A DNA stretch of 64,000 bases, from positions 208,351-272,350 of the forward strand of contig DASWXP010000002.1 in assembly GCA_036405415.1 (NCBI GenBank). The letters run 5' to 3'. The stretch is from Minisyncoccota bacterium. Its GTDB lineage: Bacteria > Patescibacteriota > Minisyncoccia > Phycocordibacterales > Phycocordibacteraceae. Below, in pieces: positions 5,293 to 19,576 of the stretch. The notes under the pieces were generated by a model that was given only the letters and a program-made list of their open reading frames with translations, did no database searches and had not been told where the DNA came from. The number at the start of each line of letters is the position of its first letter. Positions within the stretch are counted from its first letter, which is position 1. The position numbers and the translations under genes were made by a program.

Positions 5293-5595
5293 AGGACGTC
5301 AATGATTAGAAATAACTCTATTCAATATAACCTGCTGAAAGAATCGATCTTTCCAAATCTGCTGGCTGTCTGGGACGATGTTGGAACCTGTATTCTCGAA
5401 TGGTAAGGTTCGCTTGGCGGGAACACTCTGAGGAGTGGTCCTCTACTGGGAAGCTAGTTGGTGCGGTAATAGCGTCACCAAGGCACACAGACCCAGTTTG
5501 CGGAGTCGGATCAGCACATACTCGATGGGTTCGCCCACTCGAAGCTGGTTCGGCTCCGTTTTCTGTTGCTGAGGACCTGGGACGATGTTGGAACT

Positions 5596-6429
5596 TCAGC
5601 TTTGCCCAGTCTTGTCCGCAGATAGCATGGTCCTCTCCCGCGCATTACTGCTAAGAAGCTGTATAAGCTCTTTAGTTTTCGGGAACATATTAATATTAAT
5701 ACTCATCTCTGTGGTTCCTTCATTTGTACGAAATAGAGATTGAGCGAGCAATCGATACATTTTCTCGGGGTCCGAGAGCAAACTGGTCGCAAGCCCATTC
5801 TTATGAGACTCCTGGCCTACTATTAATTCAATTTCCTTCTCGATCTCTTGGGCAAGGTCTTCAATAGGACGACTCGCAAGTCCGGCCTCAATCACGGTCT
5901 CTATCTTGTTCAGCTTCTTATACTTCTTGTTTGCGAAGGAGCTTCCTCCAAACAATGCGTCTGTATACTTGTTAGCAAACATCTTGATCACGTAATCAAA
6001 GGGCGAAAGGAAGAAGTACTCTTTATCTAAGACTTTTCCCGAGAGAATCGTAGAGCCCTGCGCAAGAGTGAAGTGATCTTCGACGAGCTGGTTGTCTTCA
6101 CGCACCTTTCTCGGTGAACTAATGTCTATATCTGAGGGGAGACCGAACTTATCCGCATTGGCTTTGAGGTGTGCCTGAGTTCTGTATAGGTCAGGCAATT
6201 CTGTGTCTACTAACTCACCATCGTCATTTATAAGTAAGTGGGCCTTTAGTTCTGTGGCGTTAGTGAACAGCAGGATCGCGCCAGAACCCGCAACAGCGTA
6301 TCTAAGCTTCCCATCTTCTATTTGGGCGTTATGCTCGGCAAATGAAAATATTGGCTGCAATGCACTCTCTGGAGATCTCTCGTGCGTGCGCGCAGCAACA
6401 GGACTGCTTTGCATCCTTTCGATACTCAT
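5596..6429 (-). CDS. hypothetical protein (island-associated)
   Basis: 277-aa ORF in AT-richer DNA with no recognisable motifs. Confidence 0.4.
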   Translation of the reverse strand: MSIERMQSSPVAARTHERSPESALQPIFSFAEHNAQIEDGKLRYAVAGSGAILLFTNATELKAHLLINDDGELVDTELPDLYRTQAHLKANADKFGLPSDIDISSPRKVREDNQLVEDHFTLAQGSTILSGKVLDKEYFFLSPFDYVIKMFANKYTDALFGGSSFANKKYKKLNKIETVIEAGLASRPIEDLAQEIEKEIELIVGQESHKNGLATSLLSDPEKMYRLLAQSLFRTNEGTTEMSININMFPKTKELIQLLSSNARERTMLSADKTGQS

Positions 6430-6452
6430 AGGATGAGTATCTCATAAAATAC

Positions 6453-6478
6453 TTGGCTGGCCGACTCGGATTCGAACC
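6453..6478 (-). other. tRNA 3'-end fragment (T-loop GGTTCGAATCC + acceptor 3' strand + G + CCA), Gln-type-like; putative att-site remnant
   Basis: The minus-sense read is GGTTCGAATCCGAGTCGGCCAGCCA. No complementary 5' acceptor strand or D/anticodon arms lie upstream, so this is not a full tRNA. It shares ...CCAGCCAA with the 3' end of tRNA-Gln at 19503. Confidence 0.4.
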
Positions 6479-6633
6479 TTGGTCGGTTAAGCCCGGGCTA
6501 GTCGGTTTAGGTCTTCTCGGGCTTCGCTAAACGACGCGTCTCGGGCGCTTCAAAAAAGTGACAAAAGTGACAGCCCTACGGATCTAATCTCATGAGTGAA
6601 CAAAGTCTTAAATGCTTTCATTATCGTGTTTCA

Positions 6634-6929
6634 ATATATCTATAGCCGCCCCCATGGCCGGGGACGACTACGGGTTGCGCTAGATAGGAATCTTGCGCTC
6701 CTCACGTACGGTGTACTGAGGGTAACGAGCAGCGTAAGCCGCTGTTACGATCTGTCCAGTGCGTACGTCACGATAAATGATTACCGTGCGGTAGCGAGGT
6801 TTAGTTTTCATTACTGAAGACCTTAGAGCTAATAATCGAACGACGCTGCCCCACAGAGGCAGCGTCTCTCATTTCTACGTGCGGGACGTCGTTCGATTAC
6901 CCCCTTAATGAGGACGGCTATAGATATAT
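6634..6929. repeat. 296-bp segment bounded by a 15-bp perfect (about 26-bp imperfect) inverted repeat ATATATCTATAGCCG / CGGCTATAGATATAT
   Basis: The left arm at 6634-6648 is the exact reverse complement of the right arm at 6915-6929, and flanking bases extend the imperfect match. The interior holds a 43-aa ORF and a nested 12-bp/9-bp stem structure (6836-6900). Confidence 0.6.
6680..6811 (-). CDS. small hypothetical protein (43 aa) inside the inverted-repeat-bounded segment
   Basis: MKTKPRYRTVIIYRDVRTGQIVTAAYAARYPQYTVREERKIPI; AAGG sits 8 nt upstream of the ATG. It was absent from the ORF track because it is under 60 aa. Confidence 0.3.
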   Translation of the reverse strand: MKTKPRYRTVIIYRDVRTGQIVTAAYAARYPQYTVREERKIPI

Positions 6930-6993
6930 AGAATCAAGGTGCTTCTACCGCTATCAATAGACTAGCATTTTCATAGAAACCGCTCCCTGTGCA

Positions 6994-7881
6994 CTAGTTA
7001 CTCCCTTTAGTTGTGGTAGAGGTCAGATTCGTAAAGTCTTGAAGTCCATGGATCTTTGCAATGGTAGCGAGATACTTCACGTAGCTAATGTCTGCTTGCT
7101 TAATTAGATAGGTTCCACCATCAATGAGAATCAGTACAGAATTTTCGGATTCATAGACCATGATTGCGTTGAAAGGACTCTGTACTCCAATTTCCTCACC
7201 ATTGAAATTTGAGTTTAGTCCGATACTTACAGCAACAGGTTTAGCGCCGCCAAGATATCTAGGGACAGATGAATACACAAAGAATGAGAACATGAAAAGT
7301 AAAATTGGCAGCGCAATGAGGAAGTACAGCAGACGATAGTAGGCGCCAAAGTAGATCACGATATTCTTCAAGGTAATCCGCATGGAATGCGCCTGCGCAA
7401 TCTCTTTATGAGATTTTTTTGCTACTGAGACACCAAAGAAAATCATTGCGACCCAGACGAAACCAAGAAAGTATATGAAGGACGGTGGGTTAATTGTTCT
7501 GCCAAGTAGAAGCGGAAATACAAAGAGCACAAAACTCAACGAGGAAGCCAGGCCAAATAATATGACTTTTAGTACGGAGATAAATATTGTCCTTAAGGCA
7601 CCCTTATTCTCTTTCAAATACTTATTTAGTACTTCTACTGCCTTAAGAAAACCGTAGAAGAAAGTTGATGGTAGAGCGACAAAAAAGAGAAATAGGCTGC
7701 CTGCGGTAAAGTACTGAACTTTCAAGAAGTTGAAGTCCCAGAAGCCGTAAAGCGCTAGATAGCTGTTCACGACAAGGAAGCCGAAAAAGGTCGAGCTGAC
7801 AGCAAACAAACTCACCCACTGAAGAGTGTTTGAAAGCCTGCTTTCTTGACGTGTGAACGGATTCATTTCGATAGTAAACAC
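6994..7881 (-). CDS. polytopic membrane protein, last gene of the LexA-headed defence-like operon
   Basis: 295 aa with at least 6 hydrophobic helices, on the same strand and 24 nt downstream of the Zn-ribbon gene. Confidence 0.5.
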   Translation of the reverse strand: MFTIEMNPFTRQESRLSNTLQWVSLFAVSSTFFGFLVVNSYLALYGFWDFNFLKVQYFTAGSLFLFFVALPSTFFYGFLKAVEVLNKYLKENKGALRTIFISVLKVILFGLASSLSFVLFVFPLLLGRTINPPSFIYFLGFVWVAMIFFGVSVAKKSHKEIAQAHSMRITLKNIVIYFGAYYRLLYFLIALPILLFMFSFFVYSSVPRYLGGAKPVAVSIGLNSNFNGEEIGVQSPFNAIMVYESENSVLILIDGGTYLIKQADISYVKYLATIAKIHGLQDFTNLTSTTTKGSN

Positions 7882-7905
7882 CTGATTCTTTCTGATTGCA
7901 AAAAC

Positions 7906-8991
7906 CTATTTGGACTTAACTAGCTTCAGTAAATCCTCCTCCCTTTCATATCCGTGCAGACGACCTTCCAGCATACCTAAACGATAACTAATACCATCGG
8001 TCATAAGTCGCCAGTTGGTATCCTGGAGCGTCTTTTTGATAAGCTTTTCCAGATCCTTGGAGCTGGCATACCCCTCCCTATCAGGCCGCTTTTCATACAC
8101 CACGAATGGAACGACGACATCCTTGGAAATCTCCGGGTTCTTGAATTGGAGCTTTATGTAGTCCGCCTTTTCGAGAACGGGAACGAGCAACTCTTCGAGT
8201 TCTATAATCTTCAGCTTCTTGAGCTTTGCGATTTTCTCGTACGATTCCTTGTTCTTCTCTTTCTCCTTTATCTCGTCCATAAGCCGCCCGATCCCCTCAA
8301 GGTTCGCCTTGGCTGCCATGAACTCCTGACCCTCTTTCTCGCTCAGGCAGAATCGCTCGCGATCCTTTTCAAAGTCTGGGTCTGACCTATCGACCATGCG
8401 CTCAATTTCTGAGATATCGGTATAGTCGCAATTCGGGCAGGTAACGACCGTAAACCATTTCTCGTCAGTAGACCTATCTTCCTCCACGACCTCTGCCTTA
8501 CATTTCGGACAGGTAGACTTCTCTCGCCTGAATTCTTCCCCATCGTCATAGAACGCACGACGCGGCATATGCTCCTGAGCACAGTCGTAGAAGAATAGGA
8601 CGCGATCCTTTCCGTCGAGTCCTGCCGAGTGATGGATCTTCGAGCTTACAAACATTAGACGTCCGCAAGTAAGGCAGCTTATGTCTTCAGGAGCTACGGC
8701 TGATTCGTAGAACTTATCGCTACGCTCGTCCCTTTGCATCCACTCCCTAATCGTCGCTTCTTTCTTCAGATATCTATTGCCCTTTATGAAATAGAGACTT
8801 ATACGCGTCACCGCATTGGATGTGCGTATCAGTTCATTCTCATCCACCTCTTTCTCAGGGTGCTTGTCCTTATACGTCTGCTTCAGTCCCTCAATGTCCG
8901 GCGTATGCTTCTCCCACGAACGGCATTTCTCGACAGTGTGCTTGTCGTAGAGGTCTGAGTAATATTGATGTGGTTTTAGACGAGGCTCCAT
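7906..8991 (-). CDS. Zn-ribbon-rich (three CxxC pairs) hypothetical protein, co-operonic with the CBASS-like genes
   Basis: 361 aa with CLTCG, CPKCK and CPNCD motifs; its start lies 1 nt after the E2-like gene stop. Confidence 0.5.
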   Translation of the reverse strand: MEPRLKPHQYYSDLYDKHTVEKCRSWEKHTPDIEGLKQTYKDKHPEKEVDENELIRTSNAVTRISLYFIKGNRYLKKEATIREWMQRDERSDKFYESAVAPEDISCLTCGRLMFVSSKIHHSAGLDGKDRVLFFYDCAQEHMPRRAFYDDGEEFRREKSTCPKCKAEVVEEDRSTDEKWFTVVTCPNCDYTDISEIERMVDRSDPDFEKDRERFCLSEKEGQEFMAAKANLEGIGRLMDEIKEKEKNKESYEKIAKLKKLKIIELEELLVPVLEKADYIKLQFKNPEISKDVVVPFVVYEKRPDREGYASSKDLEKLIKKTLQDTNWRLMTDGISYRLGMLEGRLHGYEREEDLLKLVKSK

Positions 8992-8992
8992 G

Positions 8993-9694
8993 TTATGGAC
9001 TTAGACGAATACTGTGCCTCTGAATCACGGAACGCAATTTTAATAAGGCAATCCATGCAGTGGGATGGCACTGCCTGATTTTTCCAGGACTAGTACAAAA
9101 GCACTTGCTCATTTCCGTTACCCGCTCTCTTCCCGAAAGAACCGCGCGTATGCGATCCCATTTTTTGTCCTTGCGCAGTTGACGGAGACACACCTGAACG
9201 TCCTCAACAGTTCCATTACCACTAGCGAAGGACTGGAAGACACCAGCTGCGCCATGCGCGTATTCTCCCCACGGCCACTTATGGTATTTGTCGAAATAAG
9301 TCTGCTCGTACAGGAAAGGGACTACGAGCTGATCGAGATACTTTATAAAAGAATAGCCTGTCCTTAGGAATTCTTGTTTCTCGACCGGTCCGCACAAGCA
9401 AGCATTACCACTCGTATAAAAGTGCCGATCTAGGACTTTTTCTATCGTGTCATCTTCCACTGTGAGGATAGGAATATCGTCAGCTTCCTTTCCTGGCTTA
9501 ATACGTATCTTATATGTCGCAGTAAGCACCTCACCTGGCGCAACCTGTCCGGACTGAATTAACCATGTAAAACCTGTCTTTGAATCGTACGCGGCAGTAA
9601 AAGTGAGACTGCCACTCACCTCACTACCGTCGGGACTAACGCTTAAGGTCGGGAGCTTTTCTTTAAGCCACTGCTTCTCACTTTCCGGAATCAT
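8993..9694 (-). CDS. prokaryotic E2 (UBC-fold)-like protein, candidate CBASS Cap2-short/E2-only component
   Basis: 'HFYTSGNACLCGP' resembles the E2 HPN..G.ICL active-site region. The start was set at MIPESEK (9694), overlapping the upstream stop by 17 nt. Confidence 0.4.
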   Translation of the reverse strand: MIPESEKQWLKEKLPTLSVSPDGSEVSGSLTFTAAYDSKTGFTWLIQSGQVAPGEVLTATYKIRIKPGKEADDIPILTVEDDTIEKVLDRHFYTSGNACLCGPVEKQEFLRTGYSFIKYLDQLVVPFLYEQTYFDKYHKWPWGEYAHGAAGVFQSFASGNGTVEDVQVCLRQLRKDKKWDRIRAVLSGRERVTEMSKCFCTSPGKIRQCHPTAWIALLKLRSVIQRHSIRLSP

Positions 9695-10592
9695 AGCCAC
9701 CCCAAGGTCGGTTTGGCGTGAAAGTATTCCCCGCCGTATATGCAACCGATGCTGCTGCCGCAGTGCGTACTGACTTCGAGGTTTCGCCTGTGTCCACAAA
9801 GGCCTCCTGCCAGTCTTCGACCTCATCCGAATCCTTGATTCTCTCAAGAACTACTTCAGCTGCCTGAGAAATAGCTCTCTTATCTGAATCTTCAACCAGC
9901 TGAGAAACAATGTTGTTTGTGTTCGCCGGATCAACAAGCTGCATAGAAGCAAAGTCATCCTTGAAAGACTCCATTACTTTAAGGAATGCCTTTCGAAGAT
10001 CACCCTTACTCTGATAACCAGAGAGAGCTTCTACAACGAACAGTTCCAGTACGAACGTCTTGATCTTCAAGTTATTACGATAAGCCCAGAGCTTGACCAG
10101 TCGAATCATCGGAACGCAGCCACTGTTCACGATATAATCAATATGTACTTTCAGATTCGTTTGCATTCTCTGCTTATCGCCGTTTACCAGATGGATGAAG
10201 ACGTCTTTGGTGTCTGTGATGAAACGTCCTGGAACCACGTCGATGTGGAAGTCGCCGGGAGCATCCGAGCCTTTCAGATCCAAGATACGTTCTGCCGATG
10301 CTTTGTGCGTAAGCAAATACTTCTCAGCAAGACGACTCGCCACGTCTTCGCGAATCTCCTTCAGAGAGCGTTCGTCTGAGCTTGGAAAATAGCAAACGAT
10401 GTCGAGGTCGTACCGATCACAAATCATTGTGCCCTTTCCCCTTGATCCGGCATATTTTATTACTGGATCATCACCAAATTCTTCACGAAGAAACTCGGTC
10501 ACTTCCTTCTTGTGCGCCTGCAAAGCTTCCTCCTGAGAATCCGAGAGATTCTGCGAAGCAAGCAGGTCATCCAAATATTCGTTAGGTGTCAT
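9678..10592 (-). CDS. cGAS/DncV-like nucleotidyltransferase (CD-NTase/SMODS-type Pol-beta NTase)
   Basis: 'IKYAGSRGKGTMICDRYDLDIV' is a GS-x9-DxD Pol-beta NTase motif very close to the CD-NTase 'GSyarGTaik.SDvDl' pattern. A third acidic residue lies in 'HIDVVPG'. The protein is 304 aa. Confidence 0.55.
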   Translation of the reverse strand: MTPNEYLDDLLASQNLSDSQEEALQAHKKEVTEFLREEFGDDPVIKYAGSRGKGTMICDRYDLDIVCYFPSSDERSLKEIREDVASRLAEKYLLTHKASAERILDLKGSDAPGDFHIDVVPGRFITDTKDVFIHLVNGDKQRMQTNLKVHIDYIVNSGCVPMIRLVKLWAYRNNLKIKTFVLELFVVEALSGYQSKGDLRKAFLKVMESFKDDFASMQLVDPANTNNIVSQLVEDSDKRAISQAAEVVLERIKDSDEVEDWQEAFVDTGETSKSVRTAAAASVAYTAGNTFTPNRPWGGYDSGK

Positions 10593-10601
10593 ACGATTCT
10601 T

Positions 10602-11771
10602 TTAGTTAATTGTTAATGCTAATTCGTACCCCTCTTCGATACGGTCATACACATGCAATTGAGGGCTTACATCTTTAAGTAATTCCCGTCCGCAAATTAC
10701 CGCAACAGGTGCAGGAACTGCAGCAAAGAGATGAAGCTTACTTTTTGCTCCGTGTTCGTTTTCAATTGCCCTGAGTGCGGACTGATATGTCCGCTGGAAA
10801 GCGTGCAAGGTCTCCTTGGTGGTCACAATCGAACGTCCTGGCTCTCTATCAACGGGAGCTATTTCATAAATGGTGAATTCAGCATCAATACTATTGGGCA
10901 ATGTGTCCGTCCCTATCTTGCCGCTCAACGATAGGAGTAGGGCGACTTTCTCCCGATCTGTACCCTGCTGAATTTGTTTACACTCAAACTGTACGGGATC
11001 TTCACTGCGCCACCGCCAGCCAGCCGGTTCATCTCTATGGTGCTGATAGAAATCTGACGCAATTTTATCACCCAAAGCGTTACCGAGGTGAACAAGAACT
11101 GGTATCCGGGCAAGAGGAAATACCGAAAGATGTCCGACTTGACGGCGTTCTATAGCGGGAGAAATCTGCCGTTCTACAACTTCATTCACTTTCGCGACAG
11201 CTGCAGTCCAGTAACTACCATCGACTTCCTGAGGCAAGGACTGCAAGTCAATCTCGATTGCTCGGTCATCACCCAGGTAACGAGGGTACCTACCTGCATC
11301 CAGAACAGCAGTTCGCACTTCCTCATTTGAGATAGAGACTGCGTCTCCTCGAATATTACCCATTATTCGAAGAACTACGGTCTCATGCTCGACACCCAAA
11401 CCTGTGAGGTACCTAATACGTGATTCGTGCTCGTGCTTATACTTGAGCAGAAGATCTTTCGGATACTGATCCACCTTATCGATAACTGCATGGCACTTGG
11501 TGCAAAGGAGCATGAGATTTGAAATCTGATTCCTTTCTGCAATTGGCATAGGATCATTACCCCGAGGACCACCCTTTGATCGCGCCACTATATGGGCGAT
11601 ATTAGAAAGCCTTACCTCATTGGTGGTCAGTTCATCTTCAAGCAGATACGCATTACATCCGTGAAATTCGCATCTACCACCTGCACGCGTCCACAGCTCA
11701 AAAACCACCGCGTCAGTGGCCTTAATCTTTGGAGCCTCTGTTGGCTCTGCTGCTGTGGCTGAGGTAGGCAT
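10602..11771 (-). CDS. Cap5-like effector: N-terminal HNH endonuclease + C-terminal ~280-aa sensor (SAVED-like) domain
   Basis: HNH motif: RCEFHGCNAYL...AHIVARSKGGPRGNDPMPIAERNQISNLMLLCTKCHAV. A large C-terminal domain follows with no obvious catalytic motif. Start set at MPTSATAAEP, 1 nt after the upstream stop. Confidence 0.5.
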   Translation of the reverse strand: MPTSATAAEPTEAPKIKATDAVVFELWTRAGGRCEFHGCNAYLLEDELTTNEVRLSNIAHIVARSKGGPRGNDPMPIAERNQISNLMLLCTKCHAVIDKVDQYPKDLLLKYKHEHESRIRYLTGLGVEHETVVLRIMGNIRGDAVSISNEEVRTAVLDAGRYPRYLGDDRAIEIDLQSLPQEVDGSYWTAAVAKVNEVVERQISPAIERRQVGHLSVFPLARIPVLVHLGNALGDKIASDFYQHHRDEPAGWRWRSEDPVQFECKQIQQGTDREKVALLLSLSGKIGTDTLPNSIDAEFTIYEIAPVDREPGRSIVTTKETLHAFQRTYQSALRAIENEHGAKSKLHLFAAVPAPVAVICGRELLKDVSPQLHVYDRIEEGYELALTIN

Positions 11772-11772
11772 A

Positions 11773-11982
11773 CTATTTCTTTCTACGGTTGTATGGCGAC
11801 TGATTTGGCGGCGCAAGCTTAATCTTCTTTTCAGAAGCCTTCGCACGTACTCCTGCTTCAGGCCTACCGAGCTTAAGCCCAATCACGCGCGTTGGCGTAT
11901 TACCCTTTGCGAGCTCTTTGAGCTGCTTCACCTCTTCGGGGTTCCACTTCTTACCTGCATTTTTAATGTACTTCTTCGTCAT
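11773..11982 (-). CDS. small basic protein (69 aa), possible DNA-binding/regulatory component
   Basis: Tightly coupled between the LexA-like and Cap5-like genes; 'WNPEEVKQLKELAKGNTPTRVIGLKLGR' is helix-turn-helix-like. Confidence 0.4.
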   Translation of the reverse strand: MTKKYIKNAGKKWNPEEVKQLKELAKGNTPTRVIGLKLGRPEAGVRAKASEKKIKLAPPNQSPYNRRKK

Positions 11983-11984
11983 AC

Positions 11985-12632: not shown

Positions 12633-12654
12633 ACCCCTATTATAGCAAATCTCA

Positions 12655-14091: not shown

Positions 14092-14650
14092 TAGGCTTGT
14101 AGAAGAACTCGAGAAAACTCCACTGATCCAAATTGCTTGCGACAAAGTCGGTATTTCCAGAAACACCTTCTATCGCTGGATGAAGGAGGACGAGGACTTT
14201 CTCGCTCGTGTTAATGAAGCCGTATCACTAGGTACGGGTCTTGTTAGTGACGTGGCCATAAGCAACGTACTGGAAGGCATCAAGAAGAAAGATGCCATGT
14301 ATACGAAGTATTGGCTAAGCCACAAACATCCTGACTTCCGGCGACCATATGTTCATAGGATCGATGCAGATGATCTCCTTCTACACTCTCGCCTTCTTGC
14401 TGAAGGAGCTCAGAAACATAAGGTTGAGCAACAGATAGCGAATTCACGCGGGTACATCGATGAAGAGATGTCACGGAGACAGGAAGCAGAAGTCGATGAC
14501 TTTATGGAGAAGTGGGATCACATCGTAGCCAAGGGAGACGAAGAACGCGCCAAAGTCTTATTCGAGAAGTGGAAGAAGGAATACGAGACTCAAGTGCCAG
14601 ACACTCCTCCACCCGACAATAAGAAGCCTCGTAAGAAGAGCTGGCGGTAA
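14066..14650 (+). CDS. HTH protein, phage terminase small-subunit-like
   Basis: 'IACDKVGISRNTFYRWMKEDEDF' is an HTH typical of terminase small subunits; the C-terminus is acidic/basic. Confidence 0.45.
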   Translation: MKKTKALLDRLVEELEKTPLIQIACDKVGISRNTFYRWMKEDEDFLARVNEAVSLGTGLVSDVAISNVLEGIKKKDAMYTKYWLSHKHPDFRRPYVHRIDADDLLLHSRLLAEGAQKHKVEQQIANSRGYIDEEMSRRQEAEVDDFMEKWDHIVAKGDEERAKVLFEKWKKEYETQVPDTPPPDNKKPRKKSWR

Positions 14651-14893
14651 TTACTCTTTCCCTTGATCTGCAAGAAGCTTCTTCCCTACCGGAGAATCGA
14701 CTGGGATCATACCCGTTGATCCACACACTGGACATGCTTTATATCGAGAGGTTGATCGCCATATTGAGTAGATAACTCCCGGAATGATGAAGCAGAGGAA
14801 TAGAACTATCTCTATCAACATACTTCCCTTAATTGCCGTACGAGGACTACCTACGTGTCCGCATGACGCACATATCATTTCTTGCTTAGCCAT
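14651..14893 (-). CDS. small Zn-ribbon membrane protein
   Basis: 80 aa with two CxxC pairs (CASCGH, CPVCGS) flanking one TM helix. Confidence 0.45.
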   Translation of the reverse strand: MAKQEMICASCGHVGSPRTAIKGSMLIEIVLFLCFIIPGVIYSIWRSTSRYKACPVCGSTGMIPVDSPVGKKLLADQGKE

Positions 14894-14901
14894 TTTGTTG
14901 T

Positions 14902-15058
14902 TGGTTCGGTTTTGTAATTCCCGATGGCCAGATACACAAAAATCCCGCCACCAGGAGGACCCTTACGAGTATCCCTACCTAAGTTTCCCTAGGTAACCGA
15001 ACCAACGACCCTGATGACGGGGTTTTTACGTTGGTTCGGATTTTCGACCATATCCTTT
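14902..15058. repeat. three copies of GTTGGTTCGG(T/A)TTT (two direct, one inverted) upstream of the recombinase module
   Basis: Copies at 14902-14916 (+), 14995-15006 (reverse complement) and 15042-15058 (+). Confidence 0.35.
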
Positions 15059-15227
15059 GGAAACCAAAGGGGTTAGGCCATTTTTATTTAATTGTAGGCA
15101 GGTTCCCCTGCCGTCTTCTAATGGTATCGCAGTTCTTAGGGTTTGCTAAGCCTGTCCACGACCATGCGACGAATCCCTAGTTCTGCATAGACTATGCACC
15201 GGCCACCTGTCTGGCATCAATTACTAG

Positions 15228-15530
15228 GTGGAGGACAGGGACAAAATACTAGATAAAGCAGACCATTACCGTTTTACGAAAGAAGCCGACAGTGCCTACC
15301 TGAACCGTATTTCCTTTCTTCCCCACCCTAAGGAAGATCTGAAGCGGGCGATTATTGAACGGATTGAGGAGCTAATAGCCACCTACACCTCCCTGGCCAC
15401 CTACGTCCCTGATGAACTAATTGATTGGCTCAATACCCATCAAAGAACGAATAAAAATCGACGGGTCTACCTGAAAGTATTACGAGACATGGAGAGCCTC
15501 CGAAAGGAGGCTCTTACTAAATTGAAATAG
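15228..15530 (+). CDS. hypothetical protein immediately upstream of the serine recombinase (possible accessory/directionality factor)
   Basis: 100 aa, ending 6 nt before the recombinase ORF. Confidence 0.4.
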   Translation: MEDRDKILDKADHYRFTKEADSAYLNRISFLPHPKEDLKRAIIERIEELIATYTSLATYVPDELIDWLNTHQRTNKNRRVYLKVLRDMESLRKEALTKLK

Positions 15531-15536
15531 CGATAT

Positions 15537-16859
15537 ATGCAAACAGATCAATTTTCAGCCTTAATAGGCCAAGCAAACATACCCATAGCAGTTAAGGTTA
15601 AGTACGTCCTCTATGCCCGTAAATCTACCGAGTCCGACGAGAAGCAAGCACTGTCCATAGATTCTCAAGTGAAGGAGATGATGCAAATAGCCGAACGGGA
15701 GAATCTGGAAATCGTAGATATAAGACGAGAAGCCCATTCAGCCAAAGACTCAGGGCAAAGACCCGTATTCAAAGAAATTCTAGAAGACCTAAGAAGAGAA
15801 CGATTCAATGGAATCCTGGTCTGGCATCCCGACCGTTTAAGCAGAAACGCTGGTGATCTTGGGTCAGTCGTAGATCTAATGGATGAGAGACGGCTAGTCC
15901 AAATACGCACGTATGGACAGACATTTACGAATACACCGAGCGAGAAGTTTCTCCTGATGATTCTGTGTTCCCAAGCAAAACTAGAAAATGACAATAAAAG
16001 TATCAACGTAAAACGAGGACTGAAGACGAGAGTAGAAATGGGACTCTGGCCAGCTCCTGCCCCAACTGGATATCTCAAAGAAAAACGAATGGACCGAAAA
16101 TGCGAGACATTGATAGATCCAGAACGAGGACCGATTATAAAGAAAGTTTTCGAGAAAGTAGCGTATGAGAAGTGGAGTGGCAGGAAGATCTATAACTGGC
16201 TCAAGTTTGATCTGAACTTTAAGACCGCTGCGGGAAACAAGAATCTGAGTCTAAGTAACATTTTCACCATCCTTGAAAATCATTTCTATTACGGAGTATT
16301 TGAATATCCGAAGAACTCGGGAAACTGGTATCAGGGCAAACACGAGCCACTTGTTTCCAAAGAGCTGTTCGATCTAGTTCAGGAGCAGGTTAAGAGCCAG
16401 TTCGTTAGATCGGAGAATAAGGAGTTTGCGTTTACTCGACTAATTACCTGTGGCCTTTGTGGCTCGGGAATAACGGCTGACGAGAAGTTTAAGAAGCAGA
16501 AGAACGGGAATGTTCATCGCCACGTCTACTACGGATGTAACAAGTCAAAAGATAGAGCGTGCAAGAGCGGCTATATAAATGAGCCAGCACTTATAGATCA
16601 ATTCGTGGAACTTATGGATCGAATAGATATTAGCGAGATAGGAGTTAAGGAAAAGATAAAGTCTGAGGTTGAGCGACTGAGGAAATTCCAGCAGTCTTTT
16701 CTGGGCATTAAGAGTAAAACTGAGATCAGGGATATAGATATACGGAACTATGCAAAATACCTTCTGCGCGAAGGAGCTGATACTGAAAAACGAGAATTAC
16801 TCGGATGTTTAAGGAGCAAGATTCTTTTAAAGGAGAAAGTCATTACTTTATCTCCATAA
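15537..16859 (+). CDS. large serine recombinase (resolvase catalytic domain + recombinase domain + Zn ribbon)
   Basis: 'YARKSTESDEKQALSIDSQ' catalytic Ser region, 'VWHPDRLSRN', and a C-terminal 'CGLCGSGITADEK...YYGCN...C' zinc ribbon. Confidence 0.85.
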   Translation: MQTDQFSALIGQANIPIAVKVKYVLYARKSTESDEKQALSIDSQVKEMMQIAERENLEIVDIRREAHSAKDSGQRPVFKEILEDLRRERFNGILVWHPDRLSRNAGDLGSVVDLMDERRLVQIRTYGQTFTNTPSEKFLLMILCSQAKLENDNKSINVKRGLKTRVEMGLWPAPAPTGYLKEKRMDRKCETLIDPERGPIIKKVFEKVAYEKWSGRKIYNWLKFDLNFKTAAGNKNLSLSNIFTILENHFYYGVFEYPKNSGNWYQGKHEPLVSKELFDLVQEQVKSQFVRSENKEFAFTRLITCGLCGSGITADEKFKKQKNGNVHRHVYYGCNKSKDRACKSGYINEPALIDQFVELMDRIDISEIGVKEKIKSEVERLRKFQQSFLGIKSKTEIRDIDIRNYAKYLLREGADTEKRELLGCLRSKILLKEKVITLSP

Positions 16860-16860
16860 C

Positions 16861-16888
16861 AAAAAGAGGCCCATATGGGCCTCTTTTT
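16861..16888. terminator. bidirectional rho-independent terminator AAAAAGAGGCCCATATGGGCCTCTTTTT
   Basis: Perfect 9-bp GC-rich stem flanked by A5/T5, between convergent genes. Confidence 0.7.
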
Positions 16889-16904
16889 GTTAGCTCTATG
16901 CTGT

Positions 16905-17531
16905 CTAGATTAGAATCAATAACAGTCCTGCTAGTGCCGCCATTCCAAAGTCCTCAATGAGAGTAATCTTGGTAAGCGGTACTTTAAGGAACGTACCCAG
17001 ACACGCACACAAGAATTCTTCCTTGCGAGCAATCTTGATAGCGACTCCAAGGCCGCTGAATAGCATAACAAGAAGCTCTACCCAGAGCAGAGCTGGGTTA
17101 TGTATTCCAGCAAGCATGAGGAGACCGAATGCGAGTTCAAGGAATGGATAGATATATCCATATCCCATCCACTTCTGCGCCAATAGGTCATACGTTGAAT
17201 ACCCCTCAGCGAATCCCTTTAGATCTAGGAGCTTGAAGCCTGCAAAGACGATAAAGAATCCTGCCATGAAGTACCCGATGGTACTGGTGAGCGCAAAGGT
17301 ATCGTTGTAGTAGTCAGCTAGAGATACGGCAATGGTTGATGCCGTCAGGAGGCTGAAGATAACGATAAGCGGTATATAACTCTTCCAAGTTATTGGACCC
17401 AGTCCTCGATCTTCCATTACATGCTTGGGCGTTGCTTTTTCGCTACCTTCAGGCACGAGAACCATCCCACACTTAGGACACTTACCAGGACCTTCCTGGC
17501 GAATCTCTGGATGCATCGGACAGATATACAT
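16905..17531 (-). CDS. heavy-metal-binding domain (CPMHPE...CPKCGM) fused to DoxX/MauE-like membrane domain
   Basis: N-terminal 'YICPMHPEIRQEGPGKCPKCGM' is a Cu/metal-binding HMBD-type motif. The remainder is 4-TM DoxX-like. Confidence 0.55.
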   Translation of the reverse strand: MYICPMHPEIRQEGPGKCPKCGMVLVPEGSEKATPKHVMEDRGLGPITWKSYIPLIVIFSLLTASTIAVSLADYYNDTFALTSTIGYFMAGFFIVFAGFKLLDLKGFAEGYSTYDLLAQKWMGYGYIYPFLELAFGLLMLAGIHNPALLWVELLVMLFSGLGVAIKIARKEEFLCACLGTFLKVPLTKITLIEDFGMAALAGLLLILI

Positions 17532-17533
17532 AC

Positions 17534-18007
17534 TTAGATTGGTTCGTAGCTAATAACGATGTGTTCCCCATCTTTGAGTACAGTGTTTTCGTAGGTATCT
17601 ACCCCTGTACCATCTACGGTAATACGTATTCGATGTGTAGCATCTGCTTTGTAGCTGAGGATCTCATCTTTGCTGAATGGCTGATCCCATACCGCGAAGA
17701 AGTCTGAGAGCGTGAAGTCCCGTTTCTCAGGAGACTCGACATGGATGACTCCATCAGGCGTATGCGTGTGGAGTGCTGTCATGCACGTCTGCTGAACGCC
17801 AATATTTGATGGAACAGGGACGTTCTCTCCATTCGCCACGATTTCGAGCATTGGATGAATATGGAATCCTCCGGCCATTTCGTCATCGCACAGAAGTGCT
17901 AGCTCACGATTCGTAAGTTCCCCTATCGGCTTCTGTGGACTTTGGGAGAAATACAGCAATGCTCCTATTACTGCAATAAGAGAAACAATAATAATTGCGC
18001 TCTTCAT
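17534..18007 (-). CDS. membrane-anchored hypothetical protein (His-rich motifs)
   Basis: N-terminal TM helix; HIHPM and HTHTPDGVIH could bind metal. Confidence 0.4.
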   Translation of the reverse strand: MKSAIIIVSLIAVIGALLYFSQSPQKPIGELTNRELALLCDDEMAGGFHIHPMLEIVANGENVPVPSNIGVQQTCMTALHTHTPDGVIHVESPEKRDFTLSDFFAVWDQPFSKDEILSYKADATHRIRITVDGTGVDTYENTVLKDGEHIVISYEPI

Positions 18008-18008
18008 C

Positions 18009-18407
18009 TTACTGTCCGTACCAAGACGTTTTCCAATCCTGCATCTGCTTTATCTCAGTGTTCTGGGCAGTAATAATGTTCTGCGCCATATCCTTAATCT
18101 CTTGATGCTTCGCATTCTGGAGCGCGAGCTGTGCCATTTGTACCGCCCCCTGATGATGCATAATCATCTCGGTAAGGAAGGCCTGGTCGAAAGCATCTCC
18201 TGTCTTACCGTTAAGTGCCTGCATCATTGAATCCATTTCTCCCTGCATGCCACTGTTCGAACCGCCCATCATTGAGCCGTCAGGCATCATATGTCCACCA
18301 GTTGCCTGCTGCGGAGCTACCGGTGCCTTACTTGCGGCTAGTGCATAGCCACCTCCTGCACCGATAATGAGCGCAATAAGACCAACTACAATTACATTCT
18401 TTTCCAT
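18009..18407 (-). CDS. DUF305 family protein with Met-rich segment (copper-resistance associated)
   Basis: 'FLTEMIMHHQGAVQMA' is the DUF305 signature; the Met-rich 'GGHMMPDGSMMGGSNSGMQGEMDSMM' resembles CopC/PcoC-like Cu-binding tracts. Confidence 0.65.
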   Translation of the reverse strand: MEKNVIVVGLIALIIGAGGGYALAASKAPVAPQQATGGHMMPDGSMMGGSNSGMQGEMDSMMQALNGKTGDAFDQAFLTEMIMHHQGAVQMAQLALQNAKHQEIKDMAQNIITAQNTEIKQMQDWKTSWYGQ

Positions 18408-18444
18408 AAGATTTAGTTAGATTGAGTAAGAAGAAAGTAGTCGC

Positions 18445-18813
18445 TTATGGAGCTTTTGGATTAAGAATGCCGCTGGAGAAAAGTTCTTGTAGAAGCGGTG
18501 TAGCAGGATAGAAGCGCCTACGATACCCGGGCGGGCGCTCAGGCTTCGGGACGGCAAGCCAAAACCATGCGAGCGCAAGAACCGGCACTATAAAAGTAGG
18601 AATTTCTAGAGGGAGAGCTGTAAACGTAGACTGCCAACTACTAAGATGATCAAAAATTGACATAGGACACATAGAAGTCTCGCCCTGCATGAATGGGCAA
18701 CCGCCCATACTGTGATCCATAGGCATAGCCATGAAAACCAACATAAAAAGTGGCACAAGCCCGACAAGTACAATTGACGTCCAGGACAGGAGCTTTTTAG
18801 CACTTATAGACAT
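18445..18813 (-). CDS. membrane protein with Met/Cys-rich motif, hypothetical
   Basis: 'MAMPMDHSMGGCPFMQGETSMCPMS' lies between TM helices. Confidence 0.4.
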   Translation of the reverse strand: MSISAKKLLSWTSIVLVGLVPLFMLVFMAMPMDHSMGGCPFMQGETSMCPMSIFDHLSSWQSTFTALPLEIPTFIVPVLALAWFWLAVPKPERPPGYRRRFYPATPLLQELFSSGILNPKAP

Positions 18814-18865
18814 ATGTCTCTAGTATACCGCTTCTGGTTCTAGCATAGAGCTATACTTTATTTAT

Positions 18866-19315
18866 ATGAAAATGACCAATATGTATGCTCGGTTCGGACT
18901 CATGATACTCATCTCCTTTGCTGCCATGTACATTTTGATGTACGCCATGGTGAATGTGCTTGGAAATGCGCTTCCGAACTGGAATCAGTTTTATATGGCA
19001 GGACTCATGACTTCCCCGATGATAGTGCTTGAAATGCTCTTCATGGGAACGATGTATGGGAATAAGAAATTGAATATAGGAATTATTGTTGGAGGTTTGG
19101 TTTTGCTTGTTATTTTTTGGATAAGTATTAGGCAGCAAGTCGGTATATCTGATGAGCAATTTCTGAAGTCCATGATTCCGCATCACGCCGGAGCAATCTT
19201 GATGTGCAGTAAGACTAAGCTTCAAGACCCAGAGCTGAAAGCACTCTGTACTGGCATTACATCAGGTCAGCAGGGTGAGATCGAGTTTATGAAATCAAAA
19301 CTAAATGGAATGTAG
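18866..19315 (+). CDS. DUF305 domain membrane protein
   Basis: 'MIPHHAGAILMC' DUF305 motif following three TM helices. Confidence 0.6.
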   Translation: MKMTNMYARFGLMILISFAAMYILMYAMVNVLGNALPNWNQFYMAGLMTSPMIVLEMLFMGTMYGNKKLNIGIIVGGLVLLVIFWISIRQQVGISDEQFLKSMIPHHAGAILMCSKTKLQDPELKALCTGITSGQQGEIEFMKSKLNGM

Positions 19316-19502
19316 GCGGACCTCGTGGCTACAGATTTAAAGCCAACTGCCCTCTGCTAAAATCCTCAACCATACTGAATAAGGTCTTTTGTTAGAGGGG
19401 TTCGAATCTTAACTACTTCGCACGGGATTAGGACTCGAATTTCGAGCTTCAAAATGCCTTTTGTTTATTGACGCGTCTCGAGCGCGATAACCTAGCACGA
19501 GT

Positions 19503-19576
19503 TGGCTGGGAGACTAGGGATCGAACCTAGATTGACGGGACCAAAACCCGGTGTCCTACCATTAGACGATCTCCCA
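19503..19576 (-). tRNA. tRNA-Gln (anticodon UUG)
   Basis: The cloverleaf was folded by hand. Acceptor is TGGGAGA/TCTCCCA, anticodon loop UUUUGGU, T-loop GGTTCGATCCC, with G73 and an encoded CCA. It aligns with E. coli tRNA-Gln. Confidence 0.85.

What the first reader, a model, noticed from the sequence alone, without database searches (positions are those of the whole stretch)
5293..19576. AT-richer ~14 kb genomic island adjacent to tRNA-Gln with serine recombinase, phage-like and metal-homeostasis modules
Base composition shifts visibly from GC-rich flanks to AT-richer DNA between about 5.3 and 19.5 kb. The island ends at a tRNA-Gln(UUG) whose 3' end faces into the island. It encodes a large serine recombinase with a small upstream ORF, a ParB-nuclease/MTase fusion, a terminase-small-like HTH protein, the CBASS-like operon and a copper/metal-handling-like cluster. 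This pattern is typical of an integrative element or a degraded prophage.
Basis: partly seen in the sequence, partly recalled or inferred. Interest (0 to 1): 0.6.

Follow-up and report, generated by a model that had tools for sequence, protein, structure and literature searches.

The report
Serine-recombinase mobile island in tRNA-Gln
The AT-rich 14 kb stretch is a real foreign island: a 13 kb mobile element that a large serine recombinase inserted into the end of a tRNA-Gln gene of a candidate-phyla-radiation bacterium, one of a large undescribed family that carries anti-phage and metal-handling genes and the 'LOOT' RNA.

Summary
GC is 0.467 at 5293-19502 against 0.600 outside, with no overlap between 1-kb windows. 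All the listed genes are present.

The host is a Patescibacteria (CPR) bacterium. Twelve relatives keep dnaX-tRNA-Gln synteny, but almost none of the island genes follow the tRNA there.

The island has two parts:
- A 13.05 kb element at about 6456-19506, bounded by an 8-bp repeat (TTGGCTGG).
- A 1.16 kb AT-rich tract at 5293-6452 that holds one orphan ORF.

The end far from the tRNA carries a conserved 89-nt module ending in a mimic of a tRNA 3' end. The end next to the tRNA carries a conserved motif directly after CCA. Both recur in relatives.

At least 485 metagenomic relatives of the recombinase exist. The 91 loci analysed share this backbone: CI-like repressor | ParB-methylase, TerS, TerL | LOOT RNA | recombinase | cargo | tRNA. 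One relative occurs 100% identical in two contexts, diverging exactly at the mimic's end.

This copy lacks TerL. Two complete relatives have no capsid genes, so the element is satellite-like rather than a prophage. Its cargo is a type II-short CBASS and a metal module.

Unexpectedly, LOOT behaves as a 5' leader. One hairpin arm is repeated, and covaries, just upstream of the next ORF's start codon.

The parts
5293..6452 (.). AT-rich tract outside the recombinase element. It holds an orphan 272/277-aa ORF (5596-6429, minus strand) and an exact 18-bp direct repeat (5370-5387 and 5577-5594).
   Evidence: GC is 0.468. The ORF has no homologue except itself among 5.8 billion proteins. The repeat was found. 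No att module was detected here by nhmmer.
6453..6460 (.). tRNA-distal copy of the 8-bp direct repeat TTGGCTGG (CCAGCCAA in tRNA orientation). The crossover lies in this region.
   Evidence: Read from the sequence. In 18 aligned loci, conservation stops right after ...CAGC.
6456..6544 (-). Distal att module (P arm). It consists of the 16-mer GCGCCCGAGACGCGTC, an AT-rich spacer, a CTTACAGGGCTTGACCG-like block and a tRNA T-arm/acceptor mimic (GGTTCGAATCCGAGTCGGCCAGCCA).
   Evidence: nhmmer E = 7.9e-13. The same module occurs in about 35 related loci, always in tRNA orientation and, in loci that have a recombinase, to its left. It has no consensus RNA fold.
6549..6576 (-). Tandem GTCACTTTT repeats just inside the distal end. 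They are candidate protein-binding sites.
   Evidence: GTGTCACTTTTGTCACTTTTT is conserved at this position in at least 13 loci.
6994..7881 (-). Multi-pass membrane protein (290/295 aa), the last gene of the minus-strand operon.
   Evidence: ORF found. No family match.
7906..8991 (-). A 361-aa protein with four CxxC pairs, from a family whose named members are all Patescibacteria. It recurs in the related elements.
   Evidence: 704 homologues, none with a Pfam domain among the 120 best listed. Present in L091, L098, L099, L110, L122, L131, L132, L159 and L175. AlphaFold2 pLDDT 86.6, with no significant PDB neighbour.
8993..9694 (-). CBASS E2-only (short Cap2-like) protein.
   Evidence: PADLOC E2 models, 2.8e-31.
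9678..10592 (-). CBASS cyclase (CD-NTase, SMODS).
   Evidence: PADLOC PDLC00803, 2e-68. Pfam SMODS.
10602..11771 (-). CBASS effector, an HNH endonuclease fused to SAVED (Cap5-like).
   Evidence: Pfam SAVED 4.3e-36. PADLOC endonuclease effector 1e-118.
11773..11982 (-). 69-aa ORF between the repressor and the CBASS effector.
   Evidence: Called in independent Logan assemblies. No family match.
11985..12632 (-). CI/LexA-like repressor with an S24 self-cleaving peptidase domain, transcribed divergently from the ParB-methylase operon.
   Evidence: Peptidase_S24 1.8e-19. phrog_4 transcriptional repressor 1.3e-23. The GDSM and K motifs are read from the sequence.
12757..14091 (+). ParB-like nuclease/N6-N4 DNA methyltransferase fusion.
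   Evidence: N6_N4_Mtase 2.1e-31. phrog_498 3.8e-90. phrog_620 ParB-like 2.5e-24.
14066..14650 (+). Terminase small-subunit-like HTH protein. No TerL follows it in this copy.
   Evidence: Sf6_terminase 2.4e-06 and phrog_4102 4.6e-09. A TerL tblastn against the window found nothing.
14651..14893 (-). 80-aa membrane protein with split zinc-ribbon halves (Pmp3/LITAF-like). This is the ORF that follows the LOOT leader.
   Evidence: Pmp3 8.6e-06, 26.1 bits against a cut-off of 22.9. Homologues follow LOOT in L146 and L132.
14902..14913 (-). Copy of the 5' arm of LOOT hairpin P2 (AAAACCGAACCA), 8 nt upstream of the ATG of the 80-aa ORF.
   Evidence: In the 200-nt fold it pairs with the P2 3' arm.
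14954..15079 (-). LOOT RNA (Rfam RF03000), transcribed divergently from the recombinase operon.
   Evidence: 78.7 bits against a gathering score of 46.4. 119.7 bits with the session model R1, which was built partly from this sequence. Covariation in the hairpins.
15228..15530 (+). 100-aa ORF directly upstream of the recombinase. It is a candidate accessory or directionality factor, not tested.
   Evidence: ORF found. A homologue (78%) sits in the same place only in L105. No family match.
15537..16859 (+). Large serine recombinase, the inferred integrase of the element.
   Evidence: Resolvase 8.1e-23, Recombinase 4.7e-14, Zn_ribbon_recom 1e-08. phrog_95 integrase 2.4e-62. The closest solved structure is SPbeta YokA, 3.8e-14.
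16857..16892 (.). Perfect 36-bp palindrome between convergent genes, a bidirectional terminator-like site.
   Evidence: I6. All the recombinase-bearing Logan contigs retrieved end at 16886, inside it.
16905..19315 (.). Metal-handling cargo: HMBD-MauE (16905-17531, minus), a 157-aa His-rich protein (17534-18007, minus), DUF305 (18009-18407, minus), a 122-aa Met/Cys-rich protein (18445-18813, minus) and DUF305 (18866-19315, plus).
   Evidence: Pfam. Homologues lie as cargo next to recombinases in L092, L103, L122, L131, L146 and L153.
19468..19502 (-). tRNA-proximal att motif (P' arm): ACTCGTGCTAGGTTATC-GCGCTCGAGACGCGTC, directly after CCA.
   Evidence: nhmmer E = 9.4e-09. The same motif follows tRNA-Gln, -Ser, -Asn and -Trp in related loci.
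19502..19509 (.). tRNA-proximal copy of the 8-bp repeat TTGGCTGG.
   Evidence: Read from the sequence.
19503..19576 (-). tRNA-Gln(UUG), the integration target.
   Evidence: ARAGORN. Rfam tRNA 57.1 bits.

Best explanation
What it is. The tract is a foreign island at the 3' end of tRNA-Gln(UUG) in a Patescibacteria chromosome. Its core is a 13.05 kb integrative element (about 6456-19506).

How it got there (inferred). The element's own large serine recombinase recombined an attP with the tRNA. That attP contains a mimic of a tRNA T-arm and acceptor end. Recombination left an 8-bp repeat (CCAGCCAA) at both junctions.

Backbone. The family shares a CI/LexA-like self-cleaving repressor facing a ParB-methylase-TerS(-TerL) operon. 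Next comes a LOOT-led small gene, transcribed divergently from the recombinase. Two cargo slots flank this core.
- The slot behind the repressor holds a type II-short CBASS (cyclase, E2, HNH-SAVED nuclease) plus two unknown proteins.
- The slot between the recombinase and the tRNA holds a copper/metal-handling cluster.

Likely lifestyle (inferred). The element stays repressed and integrated. Repressor cleavage would turn on the ParB-methylase/TerS operon and allow excision. Having a TerS but no capsid genes and no TerL, it would depend on a helper phage for packaging, in the manner of a phage satellite or integrative mobilizable element.

Leftmost tract. The 1.16 kb at 5293-6452 is older foreign DNA or a remnant, not part of this element.

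Shown versus inferred.
- Shown: the composition break, the gene content, the conserved end modules, absence from relatives, and mobility of a sister element.
- Inferred: that this recombinase catalyses the event, the exact crossover, inducibility, and helper dependence.
For: Composition break.

Absence from relatives. Relatives keep dnaX-tRNA-Gln. None of the island genes follows the tRNA there, apart from a weak homologue of the 157-aa protein in L015. VOC lies 1-2 kb past the tRNA in L012 and L020.

The family. At least 485 metagenomic relatives of the recombinase exist. The best 80 are 68-86% identical, and 11 more come from IMG/VR. The order repressor | ParB-MTase, TerS, TerL | LOOT | LSR | cargo | minus-strand tRNA recurs. 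Where a tRNA lies downstream of the recombinase it is usually Gln, and otherwise Ser, Asn or Trp.

The ends.
- The proximal motif after CCA and the distal 89-nt module were found by profile search in dozens of loci, always in the same orientation.
- Conservation stops exactly after ...CAGC.
- L137 and L138 are 100% identical over 12.1 kb and diverge exactly at ...GGTCAGCC|.

Complete elements. L137 and L111 (about 17 kb) contain no second recombinase among their annotated genes. No capsid, portal or tail gene was found in either. The same was true of ORFs from seven IMG/VR relatives.

Condition of this copy.
- The recombinase has all three LSR domains and the YxRxS...Q and DRLxR motifs, read.
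- The repressor has an S24 domain.
- The left junction and the core are reproduced at 100% identity in independent Logan assemblies.
Against: - No empty site or excised circle was seen for this exact population. All Logan contigs that carry the left flank also carry the island.
- The stretch 16887-19489 is not covered by any independent contig I could retrieve.
- The relatives used for the absence test are distant (dnaX 52-73% identical).
- The proximal motif also follows tRNA-Gln in relatives with no recombinase within 9 kb (L009, L011, L014, L015, L016). It alone therefore does not prove a live element.
- Recombinase-less islands bounded by the same modules exist (L015, L019).
- Recombination by this enzyme at these sites is untested.
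- No replication gene was identified.
- A helper phage is purely inferred.
Confidence: 0.78

Rival explanations
1. It is a degraded prophage. On this reading a complete temperate phage integrated at tRNA-Gln, then lost its structural, lysis and TerL genes, leaving only the lysogeny and packaging remnants.
For: - A CI-like repressor, a ParB-methylase and TerS are phage-like.
- Relatives carry TerL (phrog_38; 47 of 91 loci).
- Eleven relatives sit in the IMG/VR viral collection.
- This copy has clearly lost TerL.
Against: - Complete, att-bounded relatives of about 17 kb (L111, L137) hold only defence cargo around the same core and have no capsid, portal or tail genes.
- No structural PHROG family appeared among the 25 families matched by the most of the 54 ORFs taken from seven IMG/VR relatives.
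- The backbone is conserved as such in many loci. This argues for a stable satellite-like architecture rather than independent decay.
- Caveat: structural proteins of phages of these bacteria could be too divergent for the profiles.
Confidence: 0.15
2. The island was inserted by another enzyme, for example a tyrosine integrase that has since been lost. On this reading the serine recombinase is cargo or a resolvase/invertase.
For: - tRNA 3' ends are the classic target of tyrosine integrases (Islander, PMC4383910).
- Recombinase-less islands with the same ends exist (L015, L019).
Against: - The recombinase has the full large-serine-integrase architecture.
- Its orientation relative to both end modules and to the tRNA is fixed across the loci examined.
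- No second recombinase was seen among the annotated genes of the complete elements.
- There is precedent for LSR-driven tDNA islands in Dehalococcoides (PMC3146451).
Confidence: 0.04
3. It is a native hypervariable low-GC region, or an assembly or binning chimera, rather than an insertion.
For: - The source is evidently a metagenome assembly.
- The stretch 16887-19489 has no independent contig support.
Against: - Logan assemblies from several runs reproduce 1732-16886 and 19490-22201 at 100% identity across the left junction and the tRNA.
- The LSR-metal genes-tRNA-Gln arrangement recurs in relatives (L103, L092). L109 has the LSR element next to tRNA-Gln-dnaX, the same host locus.
- Both junction modules are in the expected orientation.
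- Relatives lack the segment.
Confidence: 0.03

Closest known systems
Dehalococcoides ssrA genomic islands (McMurdie et al. 2011, PMC3146451)
   Same: - A large serine recombinase inserts low-GC islands at the tRNA-like 3' end of a tDNA.
- A short direct repeat marks the far boundary, with extra conserved sequence next to it.
- Tandem arrays and recombinase-less 'cis-mobilizable' islands occur.
- The integration module includes a ParB-domain protein, a DNA-modification enzyme and a conserved structured RNA gene.
- No conjugation or capsid genes are present, so transfer was proposed to depend on a helper.
   Different: - The target here is ordinary tRNAs (mostly Gln; also Ser, Asn and Trp) rather than tmRNA.
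- There is no second small serine recombinase (no DsiA/CcrA equivalent).
- A terminase module (TerS and TerL) and a CI-like repressor are present.
- The RNA is LOOT, not a tRNA-Gly-like gene.
- The host phylum and the cargo differ (defence and metal genes here, dehalogenases there).
Phage-inducible chromosomal islands and tycheposons (bioRxiv 10.1101/2020.12.28.424599)
   Same: - The size is 10-17 kb.
- Integration is site-specific, next to tRNAs.
- A repressor faces an operon.
- TerS is present without capsid genes.
- Defence systems are carried as cargo.
- A minority of tycheposons use large serine recombinases.
   Different: - No primase, helicase or replication module was found.
- Most family members carry TerL.
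- The integrase is a serine, not a tyrosine, recombinase.
- No helper phage is known.
- The hosts are Patescibacteria.
Large serine phage integrases (phiC31, Bxb1, A118/LI, SPbeta SprA/YokA)
   Same: - The domain architecture is the same: resolvase, recombinase and zinc-ribbon domains.
- The junctions share only a short identity.
- The attP arms show dyad symmetry (CGAG-N12-CTCG).
   Different: - Sequence similarity is remote (best solved structure YokA, E = 3.8e-14).
- The attP carries a tRNA 3'-end mimic and about 90 nt of further conserved sequence, including a second copy of a 16-mer.
- The recombinase gene is not always adjacent to att.
LOOT RNA motif (Rfam RF03000; Weinberg et al. 2017, PMC5737381)
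   Same: The window copy scores 78.7 bits over the full model and shows the four hairpins with GNRA loops.
   Different: - Rfam files LOOT as an sRNA gene.
- Here it sits in a fixed place, diverging from the recombinase gene (median gap 153.5 nt).
- It is followed by a fifth hairpin and a covarying copy of one hairpin arm right before an ORF. It therefore behaves as a 5' leader.

Membership tests
Large serine recombinase (integrase type) | N-terminal resolvase catalytic domain with the nucleophilic serine | tested here: met
   PF00239, 8.1e-23, residues 24-169. YARKSTESDEKQ and HPDRLSR are read from the translation.
Large serine recombinase (integrase type) | Recombinase domain plus zinc beta-ribbon domain C-terminal to the catalytic domain | tested here: met
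   PF07508, 4.7e-14, and PF13408, 1e-08.
Large serine recombinase (integrase type) | Catalyses attP x attB recombination with a 2-bp staggered crossover | not testable with these tools
   Only an 8-bp shared segment at the junctions can be read. The dinucleotide was not determined.
tDNA-integrated genomic island (Islander type) | Lies at the 3' end of an intact tRNA gene, with a repeat of the tRNA end at the far boundary | tested here: met
   tRNA-Gln at 19503-19576. TTGGCTGG occurs at 6453-6460 and 19502-19509. A tRNA-like T-arm/acceptor segment lies at 6456-6480.
tDNA-integrated genomic island (Islander type) | Absent from the same locus in related genomes | tested here: met
   Twelve relatives have dnaX-tRNA-Gln without the island genes. 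The relatives are distant (52-73% dnaX identity).
tDNA-integrated genomic island (Islander type) | Tyrosine integrase | tested here: not met
   No tyrosine recombinase was found in the island or in complete relatives. The only recombinase is a serine one.
Temperate prophage | Capsid, portal, tail and lysis genes | tested here: not met
   No such Pfam or PHROG hit in the window. None among the families listed for the ORFs tested from relatives.
Temperate prophage | Large terminase subunit | tested here: not met
   A tblastn of the relatives' TerL against the window found nothing. TerL is present in 47 of 91 related loci.
Phage satellite (PICI-like) | Integrase, a repressor facing an operon, a packaging gene (TerS), 10-15 kb, no capsid module | tested here: met
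   The size is 13.05 kb.
Phage satellite (PICI-like) | Own replication module (primase/Rep) and induction by a helper phage | tested here: inconclusive
   No primase or Rep family was detected, although three proteins remain unknown. Helper dependence is not testable here.
Dehalococcoides-type LSR tDNA islands | Pair of serine recombinases (large DsiB plus small DsiA), with tmRNA as the target | tested here: not met
   There is a single recombinase and the target is a tRNA. The comparison rests on PMC3146451.
CBASS type II (short) | CD-NTase cyclase, an E2-only Cap2-like protein and a SAVED-fused effector, with no E1 or JAB | tested here: met
   PADLOC cyclase 2e-68, E2 2.8e-31, endonuclease effector 1e-118. 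No E1 or JAB hit.
LOOT RNA (RF03000) | Score above Rfam's gathering threshold over the full model | tested here: met
   78.7 bits against 46.4, model positions 1-121.

The most novel reading that the evidence does not exclude
LOOT may not be a free-standing small RNA. It may be the structured 5' leader of a swappable 'guarded gene' slot in these recombinase islands.

The 3' arm of its second hairpin can pair in two ways. It can pair with its local partner, or with an identical, covarying copy placed 0-15 nt before the start codon of whatever gene follows. The following genes include small membrane proteins and nucleases.

On this reading the RNA acts as a switch that gates translation of potentially toxic or defence cargo. 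This would resemble a riboswitch or a toxin-gating leader, with an unknown trigger.
Probability: 0.4. Interest if true: 0.7.

Novelty: new variant of a known kind. Interest (0 to 1): 0.6.

Why it matters
Patescibacteria (CPR) have tiny genomes and almost no described mobile elements. This analysis defines an abundant family of tRNA-targeting serine-recombinase islands in them, with at least 485 recombinase relatives in metagenomes. For the family it gives the end sequences, a predicted attP with a tRNA-mimic arm, a conserved backbone and two cargo slots that hold defence systems.

Three things follow:
- It offers a handle on horizontal transfer and phage defence in CPR.
- It provides a set of natural large serine integrases with readable attB/attP pairs.
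- It gives a genomic context, and a testable cis-regulatory model, for LOOT, an orphan RNA motif known since 2017 with no assigned function.

Tried and rejected
1. The 16-mer GACGCGTCTCG[G/A]GCGC (6533 and 19470) as the crossover repeat. Rejected. Conservation and the L137/L138 break point place the boundary about 80 nt further out, at the end of the tRNA mimic. The 16-mer is an internal element present on both att arms.

2. The tRNA-like piece at 6456-6480 as the displaced original 3' end of the host tRNA. Rejected. Its acceptor strand (TCGGCCA) cannot pair with this tRNA's 5' strand, and the same mimic is conserved across hosts.

3. The idea that an encoded CCA is always element-derived. Weakened. 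L008 has CCA with no motif after it.

4. A second distal module at 5362-5394. There is only a weak resemblance, and nhmmer does not detect it.

5. An RNA fold for the distal 89-nt module. None was found.

6. Function of the 361-aa protein. The AlphaFold2 model is confident, but Foldseek against the PDB found nothing with E <= 0.001. Pfam, PHROGs and PADLOC gave no hit.

7. The 277-aa ORF. It is an orphan with no homologue.

8. Empty-site or alternative-context contigs for this population. The look-up of encoding contigs returned only island-bearing contigs. The matrixin-like and HMBD-MauE proteins were not on record.

9. attP or distal-module patterns in IMG/VR. Two exact-pattern scans found nothing, probably because the patterns were too strict.

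10. Supplementary text of Weinberg 2017 on LOOT. It is not held in the library.

11. LOOT as a guide for att recognition. I saw no convincing complementarity to the att arms by eye and did not pursue it.

Full report
**1. The observation**

GC falls from about 0.60 to about 0.47 between roughly 5.3 and 19.5 kb.
- Thirteen 1-kb windows inside average 0.467 (maximum 0.489). Forty-nine outside average 0.600 (minimum 0.561). That is z = -6.6.
- The tetranucleotide distance from the host profile is 0.43-0.53 inside and 0.12-0.22 outside.
- ARAGORN and Rfam place tRNA-Gln(UUG) at 19503-19576 on the minus strand, so its 3' end faces the tract.

- A large serine recombinase with all three diagnostic domains (15537-16859) and a 100-aa ORF abutting it.
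- A ParB-like/N6-N4 methylase fusion and a TerS-like HTH protein.
- A CBASS made of a cyclase, an E2-only protein and an HNH-SAVED nuclease. This is the type II-short layout.
- HMBD-MauE and two DUF305 genes.

The tools also added a CI/LexA-like S24 repressor at 11985-12632, transcribed divergently from the methylase operon.

**2. Host, and the proposed refutation test**

A scan of one genome per GTDB species with DnaX found only Patescibacteria/Paceibacteria-type MAGs as near relatives (45-73% identity). Twelve of them keep orf321-dnaX-(matrixin)-tRNA-Gln.

Almost none of the island genes follows the tRNA in those genomes. The one exception is a 30%-identical homologue of the 157-aa protein in L015. 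A homologue of the left-flank VOC gene lies 1 kb (L012) or 2 kb (L020, 65% identity) beyond the tRNA.

The segment is therefore not conserved backbone. The caveat is that these relatives are distant.

Independent Logan assemblies of the same population reproduce 1732-16886 and 19490-22201 at 100% identity. They all contain the island, so no empty site was seen at population level. All the recombinase-bearing contigs retrieved stop at 16886, inside a perfect 36-bp palindrome (16857-16892). This is most simply an assembly-graph effect.

**3. A large family**

The recombinase has 11 relatives in IMG/VR (58-78% identity) and at least 485 in JGI metagenomes. The best 80 of those are 68-86% identical, and many sit on contigs of 100-700 kb.

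A tblastn and ARAGORN pass over the 91 loci shows a conserved order:
1. CI-like repressor (usually minus strand).
2. ParB-methylase, then TerS, then a gap that holds TerL in 47 loci (phrog_38).
3. LOOT RNA (minus strand).
4. Recombinase (plus strand).
5. 0.1-9.4 kb of variable genes.
6. A tRNA on the minus strand with its 3' end facing the recombinase.

Where a tRNA lies downstream of the recombinase it is usually Gln (CUG or UUG). In the other loci it is Ser, Asn or Trp. L109 sits at the same host locus as the window (tRNA-Gln-dnaX-orf321).

Other parts of the window's island also recur in this family:
- The 361-aa protein recurs in the left arm of many relatives.
- CBASS recurs in L122.
- The metal genes recur as cargo in L092, L103, L122, L131, L146 and L153.

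**4. The ends of the element**

The tRNA-proximal end. In tRNA orientation, the tRNA is followed directly by CCA|ACTCGTGCTAGGTTATC-GCGCTCGAGACGCGTC. The same motif, in a long form or a short palindromic form (TCGTGCTAGCACGA), follows the tRNAs of the related loci whatever their identity. It does not follow the six other tRNAs of the window.

The tRNA-distal end. A profile search finds a conserved 89-nt module in about 35 loci. It is always in tRNA orientation and, in loci that have a recombinase, lies to its left. In the window it is at 6544->6456 (E = 7.9e-13). Its parts are:
- the 16-mer GCGCnCGAGnnGCGTC;
- an AT-rich spacer;
- CTTACAGGGCTTGACCG;
- GGTTCTAGCTCGAG-ACGGCCAGC, which aligns with real tRNA-Gln T-arm and acceptor sequence.

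Just inside the element lie tandem GTCACTTTT repeats.

Where the boundary falls:
- In an 18-locus alignment, conservation ends right after ...CAGC, and no RNA fold is shared.
- L137 and L138 come from different samples. They are 100% identical for 12.1 kb and become unrelated exactly at ...GGTCAGCC|. This shows both where the mobile DNA ends and that a sister element sits in two contexts.
- In the window the two junctions share TTGGCTGG (6453-6460 and 19502-19509). That gives a 13,049-bp element.

The reconstructed attP has a dyad (consensus CTAGCTCGAG-N12-CTCGTGATAG; CGAG-N12-CTCG in the window), as expected for a serine integrase site. The arm next to the crossover imitates the tRNA half-site. 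The exact crossover dinucleotide is not determined.

Related arrangements in other genomes:
- Tandem arrangements, with a distal module followed by another proximal motif, occur in L103, L109, L164 and L165.
- Islands bounded by the same modules but lacking a recombinase sit at tRNA-Gln in L015 (7.7 kb) and L019 (3.2 kb).
- Some 'empty' relatives therefore carry decayed or cis-mobilizable islands.
- L008, the closest relative, has the same tRNA 3' half and no motif.

**5. What kind of element**

The att-bounded relatives L111 (17.4 kb) and L137 (17.7 kb) contain the backbone plus defence genes. These include type IIG and C5 restriction-modification genes, a PLD-SNF2 helicase, an OLD-family ATPase, DUF4238 and SMODS. 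No capsid, portal or tail gene was found, and no second recombinase among the annotated genes.

A PHROG scan of 54 ORFs from seven IMG/VR relatives listed no structural family either.

The window copy has no trace of TerL. The family is therefore best described as a satellite-like or integrative mobilizable island with a terminase module and two cargo slots. It is not a decayed phage, although divergent structural proteins cannot be fully excluded.

The closest described analogue is the Dehalococcoides ssrA islands (PMC3146451). The shared and differing features are set out under Closest known systems. Tycheposons and PICIs share the satellite logic.

I found no paper describing such elements in Patescibacteria.

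**6. The leftmost 1.16 kb (5293-6452)**

This tract lies beyond the distal junction. It is as AT-rich as the element (0.468). It holds a 277-aa ORF with no homologue anywhere and an exact 18-bp direct repeat flanking 189 bp. No att module is detectable. It is probably older foreign DNA, and its origin is unresolved.

**7. LOOT**

Rfam finds LOOT at 14956-15079 on the minus strand (78.7 bits against a gathering score of 46.4).

A covariance model built from six copies finds 61 copies in the window plus the 91 recombinase loci, 1.16 Mb in all. It finds none with E < 0.1 in 339 kb of Patescibacteria loci taken around dnaX.

Position relative to the recombinase:
- In 48 of 91 loci LOOT lies antisense to the recombinase gene and directly upstream of it.
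- The gap is tight: median 153.5 nt, and 126-175 nt in all but two of those 48.
- The exceptions are 91 nt in one locus and 461 nt in L105, where the 100-aa ORF is inserted. The window is not among these 48. Its own gap is 458 nt, with the same ORF inserted.

Covariation supports the hairpins.

Looking 3' of the Rfam model, among 52 distinct copies with enough flank:
- 36 have a 9-12-nt copy (at most one mismatch) of their own, locus-specific P2 5' arm. In most it lies 35-65 nt downstream.
- In 35 of these, an ORF of at least 30 aa starts -1 to +15 nt after the copy.
- Controls: 0 of 61 copies upstream, and 1.6% when arms are swapped between loci against 65% for a locus's own arm.
- At least 20 different arm sequences are each matched by their own downstream copy.
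- By eye, a fifth hairpin with a conserved U-rich loop lies between P4 and the copy.

In the window the layout is:
- copy at 14913->14902;
- ATG at 14893;
- an 80-aa ORF encoding a Pmp3/LITAF-like membrane protein with split zinc-ribbon halves.

Elsewhere the ORF varies. Examples are zinc-ribbon/TM proteins, a T5orf172 nuclease and an HNH/VRR-NUC protein.

Folding the 200-nt leader pairs the P2 3' arm with the pre-ATG copy rather than with its local partner (-79.3 kcal/mol, z = -5.2).

My reading is an inference. LOOT would be a 5' leader that can switch between two helices and so gate translation of a variable, possibly toxic, gene. A DNA-level reading, in which the repeats are operator sites, is not excluded.

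**8. Verdict**

The island is a member of a large, undescribed Patescibacteria family of serine-recombinase tDNA islands. That makes it a new variant of a known kind. The LOOT result is the most unexpected by-product.

Noticed in passing
window 14893-15079 (minus strand); also L090, L093, L098, L103, L105, L146 and others: In 36 of 52 copies, LOOT RNA is followed by a covarying copy of its own P2 5' arm. In 35 of these the copy lies 0-15 nt before the start codon of a same-strand ORF. A further hairpin with a U-rich loop lies in between. The swapped-arm control gives 1.6% against 65% for a locus's own arm. This suggests a cis-acting leader rather than the sRNA listed in Rfam.
   Followed up: yes
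L137:507-12616 and L138:507-12616: The same 12.1-kb element is 100% identical in two metagenome samples, with unrelated DNA beyond the tRNA-mimic end. This is direct evidence that a sister element is found in two contexts.
   Followed up: yes
L015:12020-19697 and L019:12266-15467: These islands sit at tRNA-Gln and are bounded by the same proximal motif and distal 89-nt module, but contain no recombinase. They may be cis-mobilizable or decayed elements. L015 carries ordinary-looking metabolic and efflux genes.
   Followed up: partly
window 5370-5387 and 5577-5594: An exact 18-bp direct repeat (CTGGGACGATGTTGGAAC) flanks a 189-bp segment of higher GC (0.55). It lies between the VOC gene and the orphan ORF. 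The left copy sits in a weakly tRNA-end-like sequence. Unexplained.
   Followed up: no
window 16857-16892: A perfect 36-bp palindrome lies between the convergent recombinase and HMBD-MauE genes. All the recombinase-bearing Logan contigs retrieved end at 16886, inside it. The likely explanation is a bidirectional terminator plus an assembly-graph break.
   Followed up: partly
window 19420-19446: A fragment matching the T-arm and acceptor of a tRNA-Gln from other lineages (TTCGAGTCCTAATCCC, as in L016) lies about 60 nt inside the proximal end. It hints at an earlier or nested junction. Similar small remnants occur in L137, L162, L170 and L175.
   Followed up: no
window 7906-8991: This 361-aa protein has four invariant CxxC pairs. 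It has 704 homologues; those that carry a source name are from Patescibacteria, and none of the 120 listed has a Pfam domain. The AlphaFold2 model is confident (pLDDT 86.6), but it has no significant structural neighbour in the PDB.
   Followed up: partly
window 5596-6429: This 277-aa ORF is found only as itself among 5.8 billion proteins. It is either an orphan gene or not a gene.
   Followed up: yes
window 6627-6655 and 6908-6936: A 29-nt inverted repeat (86% complementary) flanks 252 bp that contain a possible 43-aa ORF (about 6680-6811, minus strand) and a hairpin at 6839-6870. It lies just inside the distal end of the element.
   Followed up: no
window 1732: Three independent Logan contigs all end at window position 1732. 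The cause was not examined; it could be a repeat, a variant or a branch.
   Followed up: no
window 19490: Logan contig L088 ends 13 nt past the tRNA-Gln 3' end, inside the proximal att motif. This could reflect a branch between island variants in the population, or just low coverage.
   Followed up: no
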